A stretch of 7,397 bases of DNA from positions 1 through 7,397 of IMG/VR virus record IMGVR_UViG_2531839585_000005. One strand, 5' to 3'. The translations under genes and the position numbers were made by a program. The notes beneath the pieces are model-generated. The model had not been told where the DNA came from. It did no database searches and saw only the letters and a program-made list of their open reading frames with translations. Positions 2,017 to 7,397 of this stretch are shown piece after piece. Source of the DNA: a virus (taxonomy: Duplodnaviria; Heunggongvirae; Uroviricota; Caudoviricetes). Position 1 is the first letter of the stretch; every line of letters begins with the position of its first letter.

Positions 2017-2082
2017 TTGTGCCATTCCCGACACCTCATCGTTACATTGCCGCCGGTATGACCCGGCGGCATCCTTCCCGTT
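2017..2082 (+). promoter_or_regulatory. S-V intergenic region with an 8-bp GC-rich hairpin (2049-2056 / 2063-2070) and a TGT-N10-ACA partial dyad (2018-2033); candidate late-operon promoter or RNA element for the V-W-J-I-H-G operon
   Basis: GCCGCCGG (2049-2056) and CCGGCGGC (2063-2070) are exact reverse complements around a 6-nt loop, with no following T-run. TGT at 2018-2020 and ACA at 2031-2033 resemble the TGT-N12-ACA Ogr-box of P2 late promoters, but the spacing is 10 nt rather than 12. In P2 a late promoter lies upstream of V. Confidence 0.3.
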
Positions 2083-2710
2083 ATGAACACTCTCGCAAAT
2101 ATCCAGGAACTCGCGCGCGCACTGCGCAACATGATCCGCACCGGCCTTGTCGTCGAAACCAACCTTAAAGCCGGTCGCTGCCGTGTGCAGACCGGCGGCA
2201 TGTGCACCGACTGGCTTCAGTGGCTGACTCGTGCCGGGCGTTCGCGCACTGGTGGGCACCTTCCGTGGGGGACAGGTGCTGATTCTGGCCGTGGGCGGTG
2301 AACTCGACACGGCGTTCGTTCTGCCGGGGATTTATTCCGGTGATAACCCCGCGCCGTCTGCGTCGGCGGATGCCCTGCATATCCGTTTCCCTGACGGGGC
2401 GGTGATTGAGTATGAACCCGAAACCAGCGCACTCACGGTAAGCGGAATTAAAACGGCCAGCGTGACGGCTTCTGATTCTGTTACTGCCACGGTGCCGGTG
2501 GTCACGGTGAAAGCATCAACCCGCGTACCCTGGACACACCGGAGGTGGTTGCACCAACAGGCTGATTACGGCACGCTGGAAGTGCAGAAGGGCGGGACGA
2601 TGCGCGGCAACATTGAACACACCGGCGGTGAACTCTCATCAAACGGTAAGGTACTGCATACCCATAAACACCCCGGCGACAGCGGCGGCACAACCGGGAG
2701 CCCTCTATGA
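2083..2710 (+). pseudogene. V: Baseplate spike / central hub protein V, frame-disrupted as sequenced
   Basis: Frame +1 ORF 2083-2301 gives MNTLANIQELARALRNMIRTGLVVETNLKAGRCRVQTGGMCTDWLQWLTRAGRSRT..., the gpV N-terminus. The continuation WWAPSVG is in frame +3, then QVLILAVGGELDTAFVLPGIYSGDNPAPSASADALHIRFPDGAVIEYEPETSALTVSGIKTASVTASDSVTATVPVVTVKASTRV is in frame +2 (track ORF 2231-2710). A second cluster at about 2525-2575 passes through frames +1 (TLDTPEVV) and +3 (CTNRLIT) before returning to +2 (GTLEVQKGGTMRGNIEHTGGELSSNGKVLHTHKHPGDSGGTTGSPL). The stop overlaps the W start (ATGA). Confidence 0.8.
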
Positions 2711-3054
2711 CAGCGCGTTATCTCGGAATGAATCGCAGTGATGGCCTGACTGTCACTGACCTTGAGCATATCAGCCAGAGTATCGGCGATATCCTGCGCA
2801 CACCGGTCGGCTCACGGGTGATGCGTCGTGATTACGGCTCGTTGCTGGCGTCAATGATTGACCAGCCGCAGACCCCGGCGCTTGAGTTGCAGATTAAGGT
2901 CGCCTGTTACATGGCGGTGCTGAAATGGGAACCCCGCGTCACCCTGTCATCCGTCACCACTGAGCGCAGTTTTGACGGGCGAATGACAGTTACGTTAACC
3001 GGCCAGCACAACGACACCGGCCAGCCACTTTCGTTAACCATCCCTGTGAGTTGA
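2707..3054 (+). CDS. W: Baseplate wedge protein W (T4 gp25-like)
   Basis: Intact 115-codon ORF MTARYLGMNRSDGLTVTDLEHISQSIGDILRTPVGSRVMRRDYGSLLASMIDQPQTP...SLTIPVS, recognised as P2 gpW-family with the expected length. Start overlaps the V stop. Confidence 0.9.
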   Translation: MTARYLGMNRSDGLTVTDLEHISQSIGDILRTPVGSRVMRRDYGSLLASMIDQPQTPALELQIKVACYMAVLKWEPRVTLSSVTTERSFDGRMTVTLTGQHNDTGQPLSLTIPVS

Positions 3055-3058
3055 AACC

Positions 3059-3949
3059 ATGCCGATTATCGACCTGAACCAGCTACCTGCACCGGATGTG
3101 GTCGAGGAGCTGGACTTTGAAACCATTCTTGCTGAACGCAAGGCGACACTGATTTCTCTTTACCCGGAAGACCAGCAGGAGGCGGTCGCCCGTACCCTGA
3201 CGCTGGAATCTGAGCCTCTCGCCAAACTGCTGGAGGAAAATGCTTATCGTGAGCTTATCTGGCGTCAGCGTGTGAATGAGGCCGCACGGGCGGTGATGCT
3301 GGCCTGTGCCGCCGGTAATGACCTTGATGTGATTGGTGCCAATTACAACACCACGCGCCTGACTATCACCCCGGCAGATGATTCGACCATTCCGCCGACA
3401 CCGGCAGTGATGGAATCTGACACCGATTATCGTCTGCGTATTCAGCAGGCGTTTGAGGCTTAAGCGTCGCCGGGTCGGTGGGGCTATCAGTATCATGGTC
3501 GCAGTGCCGACGGGCGTGTCGCGGATATTCTGTACCAGTCCGTCTCCGGCCTGCGTCACCATCTCGTGCTGTCACGTGAAAATAACGGTGTGCATCCGAA
3601 GACTGCTGGCGGGTGCGTAACGCCCTTAATGGCGAGGACGTCAGGCCGGTGGCCGACCGCGTGACCGTGCAGTCTGCCGCCATGTTGAATACCAGATAAA
3701 CGCCACGCTTTACCTTTACCCTGGTCCCGAAAGGAACCCATCCGCGCGCCGCCGTGAAAAAACTGGAAGCTAATCACGGCACAGCACCGGCTGGGGCGGA
3801 CATCCGTCTGTCTGCCATTTATGCCGCTTTGCATGTGGAAGGGTGCAGCGTGTCGAACTGGCTGCACCCTGGCCGACATCGTGCTCAACAGTACGCAGGC
3901 GTCTTTCTGTACCGAATACCGCGTCGTGACCGGAGGCTCGGATGAGTGA
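3059..3949 (+). pseudogene. J: Baseplate protein J, intact for the first ~134 codons, then heavily frame-disrupted
   Basis: Frame +2 ORF 3059-3463 gives MPIIDLNQLPAPDVVEELDFETILAERKATLISLYPEDQQEAVARTLTLESEPLAKLLEENAYRELIWRQRVNEAARAVMLACAAGNDLDVIGANYNTTRLTITPADDSTIPPTPAVMESDTDYRLRIQQAFE and then hits TAA. Downstream, recognisable gpJ segments appear piecemeal across all three + frames: YQYHGRSADGRVADI, TSPSPACVTIS, VLSRENNGV, VRNALNGEDVRPVADRVTVQSAA, VEYQINATLYLYPGPE, VKKLEA, ITAQHRLGR, DIRLSAIYAALHVEG, LADIVLNSTQASFCTEYRVVTGGSDE. The final segment is in frame with a TGA at 3947-3949 that overlaps the I start. Full-length gpJ is about 300 aa as I recall. Confidence 0.8.
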
Positions 3950-4472
3950 TTCGCGACTGCTGCCGACCGGCTCATCACCGCTTGAAGTCGCCGCCGCAAA
4001 AGCCTGTGCGGAAATTGAAAAAACGCCGGTCAGTATTCGTGAGCTGTGGAACCCGGATACCTGTCCGGCAAATCTGCTGCCGTGGCTGGCGTGGGCGTTT
4101 TCGGTCGACAGGTGGGATGAAAAGTGGCCGGAAGCGACAAAACGCGCCGTTATCCGCGATGCCTATTTCATCCACTGTCATAAAGGCACAATAGGTGCAA
4201 TCCGGCGTGTGGTGGAGCCGCTCGGCTATCTCATCAACGTGACGGAGTGGTGGGAAAACAGTGACCCGCCCGGCACCTTCCGGCTTGATATTGGTGTACT
4301 GGAAAGCGGCATCACAGAGGCAATGTATCAGGAAATGGAACGGCTGATTGCTGATGCCAAACCTGCAAGCCGTCACCTTATTGGCCTGAACATTACCCGG
4401 GACATTCCCGGCTACCTGTTCGCCGGTGGTGTGGCTTACGACGGCGATGTAATTACGGTTTATCCCGGATAA
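3942..4472 (+). CDS. I: Baseplate protein I
   Basis: Intact 176-codon ORF MSDSRLLPTGSSPLEVAAAKACAEIEKTPVSIRELWNPDTCPANLLPWLAWAFSVDRWDEKWPEATKRAVIRDAYFIHCHKGTIGAIRRVVEPLGYLINVTEWWENSDPPGTFRLDIGVLESG..., recognised as P2 gpI-family with the expected length. Start overlaps the J 3' end. Confidence 0.9.
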   Translation: MSDSRLLPTGSSPLEVAAAKACAEIEKTPVSIRELWNPDTCPANLLPWLAWAFSVDRWDEKWPEATKRAVIRDAYFIHCHKGTIGAIRRVVEPLGYLINVTEWWENSDPPGTFRLDIGVLESGITEAMYQEMERLIADAKPASRHLIGLNITRDIPGYLFAGGVAYDGDVITVYPG

Positions 4473-4482
4473 GTGAGGAATA

Positions 4483-6648
4483 ATGAGCACAAAATTCAGA
4501 ACCGTTATCACCACTGCCGGTGCAGCAAAGCTGGCAGCGGCAACCGCGCCGGGAGGGCGGAAGGTCAACATTACCACGATGGCCGTCGGGGATGGCGGTG
4601 GTAAATTGCCTGTCCCGGATGCCGGACAGACCGGGCTTATCCACGAAGTCTGGCGACATGCGCTGAACAAAATCAGCCAGGACAAACGAAACAGTAATTA
4701 TATTATCGCAGAGCTGGTTATTCCGCCGGAGGTGGGCGGTTTCTGGATGCGTGAACTTGGCCTGTACGATGATGCGGGAACTAATTGCCGTGGCGAACAT
4801 GGCCGAAAGTTATAAGCCAGCCTTGCCGAAGGCTCAGGGCGTTCGCAGACCTGCGCATGGTCATCATCGTCAGCAGTGTGGCCTCAGTGGGCTGACCATT
4901 GACACCACAACGGTGATGGCACGCAGGATTACGTTGATGACAAAATTGCAGACATGAACAGTCACGACGTCACCCGACGCCTCGCTGACCGCAAAAGGTT
5001 TTACTCAGTTAAGCATGCGACCAACAGCACGTCTGAAACACTGGCCGCAACGCCGAAAGCGGTAAAGGCCGCGTATGACTTGCTAACGGGAAATAACGCC
5101 AGGAGCCACCAAGCGCGAAAAGGCCTTGTCCAGCTCAGTAGGCCACCAACAGCGATTCTGAAACGCTTGCGGCAACGCCAAAGGCGGTTAAGACAGCGTA
5201 TGACCTTGCTAACGGGAAATACACTGCACAGGAGCCACCACGCGCGAAAGGTCTTGTCAGCTCAGTAGCGCCACCAACAGGATTCTGAAACGCTGGCTGC
5301 AACATCAAAAGCGGTGAAGTCTGCCTATGACAATGCTGAAAAACGTCTTCAGAAAGATCAGAACGGTGCGGATATTCCGGGAAAGGATACCTTCACGAAA
5401 AATATCGGTGCCTGTCGTGCTTATAGCGGCGCTTTGAGCACTGAAGCCGGAAACTGGACAACCGCTCAGTTTATTGAATGGCTGGATTCCCGTGGTGCAT
5501 TTAATCATCCGTACTGGATGTGCAAAGGCTCCTGGTCATATGCAAATAACAAAATCATTACGGATACCGGATGTGGTGATATCCACCTGGCTGGTTGTGT
5601 CGTCGAGGTCATGGGAACTAAATCTGCAATCACTATTCGAGTGACCACGCCGACAACATCAAGTGGTGGCGGTACAACCAGCGCGCAATTCACTTACATA
5701 AATCATGGGGACGGCTACTCCCCCGGCTGGCGTCGTGACTGGAATCGTCAGGGCGACGCAATGACCGGAACGATTAATCAGGATGGCGGAAGCCAGAATG
5801 CCTATATGTCTACGGCCTTATGTTCAGGCACCAGAGGCGGCAAAAAATATCTCAGAAAGTTTCGTGGTGGAGAAGGAGACACTATCTGGCATGAAACAGT
5901 ACAGGGCGGGGTAATTCGCTGGGCGACAGGAAACTATGACGCTCAGGAAGAATTATCACTCAGCTCCGCTTATGGTCTCCGTTCAAGAGGTGAGATTACA
6001 TCACTCAGTGCTAATGGTCTGCGCATTGCTTATGGCAATTATGGATTCTTTATCAGGAATGATGGCGGCAGCACATATTTAATGCTGACGGCCTCTGGCG
6101 ATAAATTAGGCACATAGAACAATTTAAGACCGCTGACTATAAATAACGCCAAGGGCGCAGTATCAATGGGGCATGGCCTGAATGTTACTGGTGATATTGT
6201 CTCAAGTACCAAAGTACGTGCCGGTAGCGGGAAAAAATTCACGGTCAGCAGCAGTAATACATCCACGAAGGAAGCCGCATTCAATTTGTGGGGAAACTCA
6301 AGTCGTCCGGTGGTGGCTGAATTAGGTGATGATGCAGGCTGGCATTTTTACAGTCAGAGAAATACAGATAACAGCATCACGTTTGCTGTTAACGGTCAGG
6401 TATCACCATCTAACTATAGTAATTTTGATTCACGCTATGTCCGGGATATCCGGCTTGGTGGTGCTGCCACATACAAACCTGCGAACAATGGCATGACATG
6501 GACACATCAGGCACCGTCCGGGTGTGTATATTCCGGCATTATTGTTCAGGATACCGGCTCAAACTCTGCCGATAACATTGGTGGCATATATTACAGACCG
6601 GTGCAGAAATACATTAACGGGACTTGGTATAACGTGGCGCAGGTATAA
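4483..6648 (+). pseudogene. H: Tail fibre protein H (mosaic). 5' third is frame-disrupted, one in-frame TAG at 6115-6117, otherwise continuous
   Basis: ATG at 4483 preceded by GAGG. Frame +1 reads MSTKFRTVITTAGAAKLAAATAPGGRKVNITTMAVGDGGGKLPVPDAGQTGLIHEVWRHALNKISQDKRNSNYIIAELVIPPEVGGFWMRELGLYDDAGT, the gpH N-terminus. From about 4778 the continuation (LIAVANMAESYKPAL, LAEGSGR, RMVIIVSSVASV, LTIDTTTVMA, then the ATNSTSETLAATPKAVK repeats) is scattered over three frames up to about 5280. From 5281 to 6648 a single frame +1 runs cleanly apart from the TAG at 6115-6117 (track ORFs 5314-6117 and 6166-6648). The C-terminus ...NFDSRYVRDIRLG...RPVQKYINGTWYNVAQV is the conserved P2-H-type tail-fibre terminus. 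Confidence 0.85.
5006..5337 (+). repeat. Three imperfect direct tandem repeats of ~126 bp inside H, encoding a repeated tail-fibre motif
   Basis: Copy 1 about 5006-5130, copy 2 about 5131-5258, copy 3 (partial, diverging) about 5259-5337. Each encodes a variant of QLSSATNS(T/D)SETLAAT(P/S)KAVK(A/T/S)AYDLANGKYTAQEATTARKGLV. The copies differ by substitutions and 1-bp indels. Confidence 0.7.
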
Positions 6649-6651
6649 TTT

Positions 6652-7179
6652 ATGCAGCATTTGATAAATATAACGGCAGGTAATCCAAAAACGGTTGAAC
6701 AATATCAATTGACAAAGGACTTTGATGTTGTCTGGTTTTTTTCAGAAGATGGTAAGAACTGGTACGAAGAACAAAAGTATTTTGCTGATGACACGATAAA
6801 AATAGCGTACGACAAAGATAATATCATCCGCTATGTGGAAAAGGATGTGACAGCTATCAGACCGGATGGATTAAGTGTGGTTGAAGTGGCGGATATTACT
6901 GCTAACCGACGGGCGGATATTTCAGGGGGCTGGATGTTTAAGGACGGCAAAGTGATTAAACGCATTTATACGGCAGATGAATTGCGGCGGCAGGCAGAAA
7001 TTCGGAAAGTCAGACTTCTTGCAGATGCTGAATCCGTGATTTTGCCGCTGGAGCGCGCTGTCAGGCTGAACATGGCAACAGATGAGGAGCGTAGCCGACT
7101 GGAAGCATGGGAGCGTTACAGCGTTCTGGTCAGTCGTGTGGATCCTGCAAATCCTGAATGGCCGGAAATGCCGCAATAA
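6652..7179 (+). CDS. G: Tail fibre assembly protein G (Tfa-type chaperone)
   Basis: Intact 175-codon ORF starting 3 nt after the H stop: [44 protein letters not shown]...[42 protein letters not shown]. The C-terminal half is recognised as the P2 gpG/Tfa family. Position immediately 3' of the tail-fibre gene fits. Confidence 0.9.
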
Positions 7180-7213
7180 GTTGTATGAGTTCTGGTGTGA
7201 GCTTACACATCTA

Positions 7214-7255
7214 TGGCACAGAGTAAAGCCTAATCTGACAGTTCGCTCTGTGCCA
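7214..7255. repeat. Perfect 10-bp inverted repeat (TGGCACAGAG / CTCTGTGCCA) separated by 22 nt, in the A+T-rich region after G
   Basis: Positions 7214-7223 and 7246-7255 are exact reverse complements. No T-run follows, so it is not a canonical intrinsic terminator. It could be a protein-binding site, an RNA stem-loop at the operon 3' end, or the junction of inserted DNA. Confidence 0.5.
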
Positions 7256-7397
7256 AGAGCGGACGTTACTACTACTCGACCTAAAGTAAAGCAATTGTAC
7301 TCATTAAATAGTGGTAATTGGGTCTGGTGCTTAATCGAACGAAATCTCATGTTAGGCGAAAAAAACGTCTGAAAAATCGATTAACACATACACCTGT

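What the first reader, a model, noticed from the sequence alone, without database searches (positions are those of the whole stretch)
5006..5337. Tandem ~126-bp repeats encoding a repeated motif in the tail-fibre shaft
Three direct repeats encode variants of SSATNSTSETLAATPKAVK.AYDLANGKYTAQEATTARKGLV. P2 H carries the same motif in fewer copies as I recall. Copy-number change by slipped-strand or recombinational expansion would alter fibre length. The third copy is where homology switches to the divergent distal region, so the repeat may be the recombination joint of the mosaic.
Basis: partly seen in the sequence, partly recalled or inferred. Interest (0 to 1): 0.45.

Follow-up and report, generated by a model that had tools for sequence, protein, structure and literature searches.

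The report
Known tail-fibre repeat in a mis-assembled contig
The repeat is real but ordinary: three copies of a catalogued 44-amino-acid phage tail-fibre module whose number varies from 2 to 6 among close relatives, read here from a draft contig whose frameshifts, stop codon and odd 126-bp period are assembly errors.

Summary
Window 4976-5358 holds three tandem copies of the Pfam repeat PF03406 (Phage_fiber_2). They sit in gene H, the tail fibre gene of a P2-like prophage, between the baseplate-attachment domain and a Mu-S-like distal part.

- **Period.** In intact relatives the unit is exactly 132 bp (44 codons). The 125-130 bp seen here comes from missing bases.
- **Source.** The window is a whole draft contig, APZI01000619.1. 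All 47 indels against an intact relative are deletions.
- **Cause of the errors.** The missing bases fall on sites that are polymorphic among relatives (26 of 34, against 19% background). The in-frame TAG is a site-by-site blend of two alleles that sister assemblies carry separately. The contig is therefore a consensus of two co-assembled alleles.
- **Copy number here.** Three units is uncertain; three sister drafts show four.
- **Copy number in relatives.** It does vary: 2, 3, 4 and 5 units in 74 complete genes, and up to 6 elsewhere. Some allele pairs differ by exactly one 132-bp unit and 2-4 substitutions.
- **Mosaic joint.** Homology with other fibre genes ends at the KAVK motif of a unit, or about 20 codons later at a conserved NGADIP box. 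In a Mu-like phage that box lies just before the Gin inversion site.

The feature is already known.

The parts
4483..6650 (+). Tail fibre gene H of a P2-like prophage. It is broken into five ORFs in this contig by 21 missing bases and one TAG.
   Evidence: ORF list and three-frame translation. 96.8% identical over its full length to intact 728-aa H genes in complete E. coli genomes. The repaired protein hits PF12571, PF03406 (three stretches) and PF21446.
4483..4929 (+). N-terminal baseplate-attachment domain (PF12571, aa 1-151).
   Evidence: Pfam 196.8 bits; coordinates mapped.
4976..5101 (+). Phage_fiber_2 unit 1 (DASLTAKGFTQLSSATNSTSETLAATPKAVKAAYDLANGKYTAQ). 126 nt here, 132 nt in intact relatives.
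5102..5231 (+). Phage_fiber_2 unit 2 (DATTARKGLVQLSSATNSDSETLAATPKAVKTAYDLANGKYTAQ). 130 nt here.
5232..5358 (+). Phage_fiber_2 unit 3, the last unit (…SETLAATSKAVKSAYDNAEKRLQKD). 127 nt here.
   Evidence: The AATSKAVK variant is also present in relatives.
5359..5379 (+). Conserved linker box ending in NGADIP. DNA identity to the other common distal cassette types is lost just after it.
   Evidence: Identity profile; protein alignment with SfMu S; coordinates.
5380..6650 (+). Distal part of the fibre. It starts with a segment like the variable part of Mu S (GKDTFTKNIGACRAYS…), then a T4 gp34-type trimerisation domain (5950-6141), then a P2-H-like C-terminal tip.
   Evidence: PDB sequence hits 8ju3, 5yvq and 4uxe; SfMu translation; Pfam PF21446.
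4781..5280 (+). Patch of 21 missing bases (assembly artefact) covering the end of the N-terminal domain and the whole repeat array.
6116..6118 (+). In-frame TAG. It is a chimera of TGG (allele seen in L087, L089 and L001) and TAT (allele seen in L088).
6652..7179 (+). Gene G, the tail fibre assembly chaperone (Caudo_TAP), partner of H.

Best explanation
The feature is an array of 44-residue Phage_fiber_2 (PF03406) modules in the proximal shaft of a P2-type tail fibre. It lies between the domain that plugs into the baseplate and the exchangeable receptor-binding part.

Shown:
- The unit is 132 bp.
- The array length differs among otherwise near-identical genes in exact 132-bp steps.
- Sequence variation in the N-terminal domain and the repeats is unlinked to the type of distal cassette.
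- The edge of shared homology lies at the KAVK end of a unit or at the NGADIP box just after the array.

Inferred:
- Copy number changes by in-register unequal homologous recombination or replication slippage between adjacent units, which share long identical stretches.
- Each unit adds a fixed length to the trimeric shaft.
- The conserved array and linker give different phages a common stretch of homology through which distal cassettes are swapped.

This particular contig is a column-by-column consensus of two co-assembled alleles. Its frameshifts, its stop codon and its ~126-bp period are artefacts, and its three-unit count is not secure.
For: Identity of the module:
- PF03406 is found three times in the intact homologue and in the repaired window protein, and four times in other relatives.
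- Gene order lysB-lysC-R-S-V-W-J-I-H-G.

Copy number:
- 2 (5 genes), 3 (2), 4 (54) and 5 (13) units in 74 complete IMG/VR genes, all 248 spacings 44 aa.
- 3 (41 proteins), 4 (64), 5 (10) and 6 (5) units in the best 120 database proteins.
- Both 2189-bp (three-unit) and 2321-bp (four-unit) versions occur in complete E. coli genomes.
- One distal type occurs with 3, 4 and 5 units.
- L001 equals L004 minus exactly 132 bp, with 4 mismatches in 1134 nt. L075 equals L015 minus 132 bp, with 2 mismatches. In both, the crossover interval lies within 50-108 nt shared by adjacent units.

Joint:
- Identity profiles.
- In the 60 rows, which are sampled at even steps down the ranking of E. coli records, the homology end points cluster at nt 592-594, 726 and 858-876 of H. 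These are the ends of KAVK/SAYD in units 1, 2 and 3.
- Linkage to distal type is absent up to the 5' half of the last unit (distance ratio 0.99-1.25) and appears only in its 3' half and linker (1.62).
- The module is shared with Mu-like, P1, lambda Stf and Stx-phage fibre genes. Lambdoid genes share about 200 bp of it at roughly 85% DNA identity.

Artefact:
- 47 deletions and 0 insertions, in patches.
- 26 of 34 deleted columns are polymorphic against 546 of 2931 other columns, P = 6e-13. Simulated random deletions hit polymorphic columns only 23.6% of the time.
- At all 46 sites where sister drafts L087 and L088 differ, the window carries one base or the other. It alternates site by site over 6108-6162, and that alternation creates the TAG.
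- The window is the whole contig APZI01000619.1. Three sister drafts have four units.
Against: - No structure of the module could be obtained. The AlphaFold2 monomer model has pLDDT 23-37 over the repeats, so the length added per unit and any functional effect are untested.
- The main joint among close relatives is not inside the repeated DNA. It lies about 20 codons downstream.
- Clustering of homology end points at module edges would also arise if only chimeras joined at domain borders survive selection.
- The raw reads were not available, so the two-allele consensus model is inferred from the pattern of errors.
- The 80 IMG/VR loci are the hits most similar to the query, and many come from draft assemblies that can mis-count repeats.
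Confidence: 0.85

Rival explanations
1. The three-unit count is itself an assembly collapse. The source prophage or prophages would carry four or more units, and reads from different units were stacked together.
For: - Three sister drafts from neighbouring accessions share the same missing bases in H but have four units.
- Inside the array the missing bases sit where units differ from one another.
- Many database H proteins are 'partial', cut at contig ends, which shows that this region breaks short-read assemblies.
Against: Genuine three-unit alleles exist in complete genomes, including NCTC11476 and E1, so three units is biologically possible. The window's junction is in register.
Confidence: 0.45
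2. Gene H, and also V and J, are true pseudogenes of a decaying prophage. The single-base deletions and the stop codon would then be real mutations.
For: - Several deletions are shared by four independent assembly records.
- Bacterial pseudogenes do show a bias towards deletions.
Against: - 47 deletions against 0 insertions, confined to three patches, with no excess of substitutions outside the repeat array.
- The deletions fall on population-polymorphic sites with an odds ratio of 14. No mutational process predicts that.
- The TAG is a position-wise mixture of two alleles that are found separately in sister drafts.
- Which genes are broken differs among sister drafts: V is intact in L087 and L088.
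Confidence: 0.05
3. The repeat DNA does not promote exchange. Homology ends pile up at unit and linker edges only because chimeric fibres fold when joined at module borders, so the pattern reflects selection rather than a recombination hotspot.
For: - The commonest joint lies after NGADIP, outside the repeated DNA.
- Each distal cassette keeps a K..F..NI(G/N) motif at the protein level while its DNA is unrelated.
Against: - DNA identity of 96-100% runs right up to the joint and then drops to random.
- Unrelated lambdoid fibre genes share the unit at about 85% DNA identity over roughly 200 bp, which is enough for relaxed homologous recombination.
- The two views are not exclusive.
Confidence: 0.35

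Closest known systems
Pfam PF03406, Phage_fiber_2 ('Phage tail fibre repeat'), first noted in lambda Stf and P2 gpH
   Same: Same module, scoring well above the curated cut-off (176.7-256.5 bits against 22). It is arranged in tandem in a tail fibre protein.
   Different: Nothing essential. This work adds the exact 44-residue period and the 2-6 copy range in P2-like H genes.
Bacteriophage P2 gpH (669 aa; AF063097 type)
   Same: Same N-terminal domain, same first units, same gene order and the same G chaperone downstream.
   Different: P2 has two units and leaves the shared sequence right after KAVK of unit 2 (…KAVKTVMDETNKK…). Its distal part is unrelated until the extreme C-terminal tip.
Mu and SfMu tail fibre S (gp49) with the invertible G segment
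   Same: - One Pf2 unit followed by the KD(R/Q)NGADIP box.
- The window's distal part matches the variable part of S from NGADIPGKDTFTKNIGACRAYS onwards.
- In SfMu the G-segment inverted repeat (gix) begins at codon 166, FIQNVGLQE, directly after that box.
   Different: - The window has no invertase.
- It has no gix-like site: 0 matches at up to 3 mismatches.
- It has no second fibre cassette.
- It carries three units instead of one.
Length-variable collagen and coiled-coil segments in EHEC prophage side tail fibres (PMC3368898)
   Same: Fibre proteins that contain a Pf2 module and whose shaft length varies in whole repeat units between prophage copies.
   Different: There the variable parts are Gly-X-Y triplets and heptads. 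Here the Pf2 module itself is the variable unit.

Membership tests
Pfam PF03406 Phage_fiber_2 repeat | Sequence scores above the curated gathering threshold (22 bits). | tested here: met
   Repaired window protein 176.7 bits with three stretches. Raw window ORFs 47.6 and 35.6 bits. Intact homologues 190.7 and 256.5 bits.
Pfam PF03406 Phage_fiber_2 repeat | Occurs as a repeated module of about 40 residues in a phage tail fibre protein. | tested here: met
   Period exactly 44 aa in 248 of 248 spacings. The host protein has the PF12571 fibre N-terminal domain and is followed by a Caudo_TAP chaperone gene.
P2-type (Peduoviridae) tail fibre gene H | N-terminal PF12571 domain and the gene order V-W-J-I-H-G. 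| tested here: met
   91-97% DNA identity to Peduovirus H genes.
P2-type (Peduoviridae) tail fibre gene H | A single intact open reading frame. | tested here: not met
   Five ORF fragments and a TAG in this contig. This is attributed to assembly error, so it does not argue against homology.
Invertible tail-fibre segment (Gin/Cin/Min type) | Invertase gene, inverted crossover sites, and two opposed variable fibre cassettes. | tested here: not met
   No gix-like site at up to 3 mismatches. Only short, chance-level inverted repeats. No invertase ORF, and a single H-G pair. SfMu served as a positive control and shows the sites.
Phase-variable contingency repeat (on/off by slippage) | A change in copy number shifts the reading frame or the promoter spacing. 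| tested here: not met
   The unit is 132 bp, or 44 codons, so every observed copy number (2-6) stays in frame.

The most novel reading that the evidence does not exclude
The Pf2 array could be a fast-evolving length dial. Unequal crossover would add or remove 44-residue shaft segments (2 to 6 seen), tuning how far the receptor-binding tip reaches through O-antigen or capsule. Copy number would then be selected together with host surface type, independently of which distal cassette is attached.
Probability: 0.25. Interest if true: 0.4.

Novelty: already known. Interest (0 to 1): 0.15.

Why it matters
Biologically this adds little. The module is a curated Pfam family, and the mosaic nature of P2, Mu, P1 and lambda fibre genes has been discussed since the early 1990s (Haggard-Ljungquist 1992 and Sandmeier 1994, as cited in PMC3945230 and PMC8986868).

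Three things are useful:
- A clean record that the array changes in exact 132-bp steps among near-identical prophages.
- A more precise position for the cassette joint, the NGADIP box next to the place where Mu has its gix site. This is relevant to the design of chimeric P2 fibres.
- A practical warning. Draft contigs of multi-prophage E. coli genomes can be per-site blends of two alleles, producing false frameshifts, false stop codons and unreliable repeat counts.

Tried and rejected
- **Structure of the repeat.** An AlphaFold2 monomer model of a three-unit homologue (P0091, 30-sequence alignment) gave mean pLDDT 42, and 23-37 over the repeats. It was not used and no fold search was run.
- **Solved structures.** The PDB sequence search found Mu S entries that contain one unit in their sequence (5yvq, 8ju3) but no P2 gpH structure. 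The Mu cryo-EM paper modelled only the N-terminus of gp49 (PMC11915804). PF03406 had no known structure in 2021 (PMC8078820).
- **Literature on copy number.** Searches for a published description of copy-number variation in P2 H found none in the held library. The 1992 P2 paper, PMC206541, is not held.
- **Clustering repeat units into a few DNA types.** This failed: 55 centroids at 95.5% identity. Units at the same position are 2.5-4 times more diverse than the N-terminal domain.
- **Pseudogene decay.** Rejected on the polymorphic-site and allele-blend evidence.
- **Invertible segment and phase-variable repeat.** Both rejected.

Full report
**What the window is.** The ORF map gives the late-gene order of a P2-like prophage: lysB/lysC, R, S, V, W, J, I, H, G. 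The closest intact relatives are annotated the same way. An exact-protein look-up shows that the window is the whole 7397-bp contig APZI01000619.1 of NCBI draft assembly GCA_000356865.2 (locus L090, confirmed identical). The tail fibre gene H spans 4483-6650. It is 96.8% identical over its full length to intact 728-aa H genes in complete E. coli genomes and 91-97% identical to Peduovirus phage H genes.

**Is the repeat there?** Yes.
- TRF finds 5020-5331, period 127, 2.5 copies, 83% matches, score 416.
- The direct-repeat tool finds three copies of an 87-nt core spaced 125 and 127 nt apart.
- The best ungapped self-match scores 45 at lag 125, against 9.7 +/- 1.4 in 200 dinucleotide shuffles.
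- The repeat is Pfam PF03406, Phage_fiber_2 ('Phage tail fibre repeat'). It gives three stretches in the intact homologue and in the repaired window protein, and four in other relatives. Even the raw, frame-broken ORFs of the window pass the curated cut-off.
- In the Pfam register the units are 4976-5101, 5102-5231 and 5232-5358.

**What is wrong with the observation.** The window does not encode the motif in one frame. Between 4781 and 5280 the reading frame changes about every 30-40 nt, and there is a TAG at 6116-6118. Against the intact E. coli E1 homologue, all 47 indel columns in 2083-7264 are deletions in the window and none are insertions. They fall in three patches, in genes V, J and H. 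In every intact relative the units are exactly 44 codons (132 bp) apart, in 248 of 248 spacings. The window's 126, 130 and 127 nt units are therefore a by-product of the missing bases.

**Why the missing bases are assembly artefacts.** Four results point the same way.
- In an alignment with 56 intact relatives, 26 of 34 deleted columns are polymorphic, against 546 of 2931 other columns (odds ratio 14, P = 6e-13). All nine deleted columns in 4781-4975 have a minor-allele count of 5 or more out of 56.
- As a control, random single-base deletions were simulated in intact relatives and re-aligned in the same way. They fall on polymorphic columns only 23.6% of the time against a 19.2% background, so gap placement does not explain the enrichment.
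- Three sister drafts (GCA_000358695.2, GCA_000358655.2, GCA_000359095.2) carry the same truncated 110-aa H ORF and share the missing bases at 4781-5111. They differ in which other genes are broken.
- In 5340-6650 there are 46 sites where sisters L087 and L088 differ. At all 46 the window has one base or the other. Over 6108-6162 it alternates between them site by site. The TAG is made of T, then A from the TAT allele, then G from the TGG allele. Recombination does not produce single-nucleotide alternation.

A column-by-column consensus of two co-assembled alleles explains all of this. That could be two similar prophages in one genome or a mixed template. Where the two alleles differ, the consensus either picks one base or drops the base. 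A decaying pseudogene is very unlikely.

**Consequence for the copy number here.** The three sister drafts are otherwise identical across this region, share its missing bases, and have four units. Inside the array the missing bases sit where units differ from each other. The window's three units may therefore be a collapse. However, true three-unit alleles exist in complete genomes such as NCTC11476 and E1, so the count cannot be settled without reads or PCR.

- Among 74 complete H genes from IMG/VR whose first 180 residues are at least 98% identical to the query, 5 have 2 units, 2 have 3, 54 have 4 and 13 have 5.
- In the best 120 hits of the large protein database the counts are 3 units (41 proteins), 4 (64), 5 (10) and 6 (5).
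- Complete E. coli genomes show both the 2189-bp (three-unit) and 2321-bp (four-unit) versions of this very allele.
- One distal type occurs with 3, 4 and 5 units.
- Some pairs are recent. E1 (three units) equals Yersinia phage vB_YpM_46 (four units) minus exactly 132 bp, with 4 mismatches in 1134 nt. L075 equals L015 minus 132 bp, with 2 mismatches. In each case the possible crossover interval is a 50-108 nt stretch identical between adjacent units.

This is the footprint of in-register unequal recombination or slippage. Because the unit is 44 codons, no copy number breaks the frame, so this is not a phase-variation switch.

**Where the mosaic joint is.** DNA identity was profiled from the start of the last AATPKAV motif.
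- Against three other distal cassette types it stays at 96-100% for about 60 nt, is 83-86% at +60 to +90, and drops to about 40% from +90. The break is right after …KDQNGADIP.
- Against canonical P2 the break is at about +30, directly after KAVK.
- One search lists 60 E. coli records sampled at even steps down the ranking. Their homology end points cluster at nt 592-594, 726 and 858-876 of H, which are the KAVK/SAYD ends of units 1, 2 and 3. Lambdoid side-tail-fibre genes share only about 200 bp of the unit, at roughly 85% identity.
- Sequence variation in the N-terminal domain and in all units up to the 5' half of the last one is unlinked to distal type (between-type to within-type distance ratio 0.99-1.25). 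Linkage appears only in the last 84 nt (ratio 1.62).

So the distal cassettes have been shuffled against the proximal part at, or just after, the end of the array. For the common cassettes, though, the joint is the NGADIP linker box and not the repeated sequence itself.

**Link to Mu.** The unit plus linker occurs in P2-like, Mu-like, P1, lambda Stf, Stx-phage and Gifsy-2 fibre genes. In SfMu the fibre gene S has one unit followed by KDRNGADIPNKPL. The inverted repeat that bounds the invertible G segment begins at the next codon, codon 166 (FIQNVGLQE), and the Gin invertase gene lies nearby. The variable part of S then begins with a second NGADIPGKDTFTKNIGACRAYS, which is the start of the window's distal region. 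The P2-type joint therefore corresponds in position to the boundary between the constant and variable parts of Mu S. The window has no gix-like site, no invertase and no second cassette, so it is not an invertible system. That invertase sites flank fibre cassettes was proposed by Sandmeier in 1994, as cited in PMC3945230 and PMC8986868.

**How it most likely works.**
- Shown: the module identity, the period, the copy-number polymorphism in exact unit steps, and the position of the homology edges.
- Inferred: each unit adds a fixed segment to the trimeric shaft between the baseplate-binding domain (PF12571) and the receptor-binding part. Array length changes by unequal crossover. The conserved array and linker supply the homology through which distal cassettes move between phages.
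- Not obtained: the structure of the module. The monomer AlphaFold2 model is unreliable over the repeats, and the papers I could read give no structure for it.

**Verdict.** The unusual aspects of this copy (odd period, degenerate-looking motif variants, broken frame, stop codon) are assembly artefacts.

Noticed in passing
window 6108-6162 (TAG at 6116-6118): The sequence alternates base by base between two alleles that sister drafts carry separately. The stop codon is a TGG/TAT chimera, so the contig is a blend of two alleles.
   Followed up: yes
window 2228-2568 (gene V) and 3456-3868 (gene J): The same kind of missing-base patches break the baseplate genes V and J. In sister drafts L087 and L088, V is intact, so the damage differs between assemblies.
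   Followed up: yes
window 2017-2082; L001 1637-2574: The gap between genes S and V is 64 bp here. In E. coli E1 it is 938 bp and holds a reverse-strand hypothetical ORF (L001 1706-2491). This looks like a variable cargo slot.
   Followed up: no
window 7180-7397: Similarity to E1 ends at about 7264, shortly after gene G, and the contig stops at 7397. Sister drafts carry different genes after G. This looks like a second cargo slot and probably explains why the contig ends there.
   Followed up: partly
L091 (SfMu) 4167-4224 and 7210-7267: The G-segment inverted repeat starts at codon 166 of S, right after the single Pf2 unit and the NGADIP box. A second NGADIP box opens the variable part, so the box flanks the inversion site on both sides.
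   Followed up: partly
P0001-P0120: A large share of database H proteins are labelled 'partial', that is, cut at contig ends. The repeat array or the multi-copy prophage commonly breaks short-read assemblies.
   Followed up: no
repeat units across L005-L084: Units at the same position are 2.5-4 times more diverse at the DNA level (4.7-7.2%) than the adjacent N-terminal domain (1.8-2.0%). This suggests shuffling or conversion between units.
   Followed up: partly
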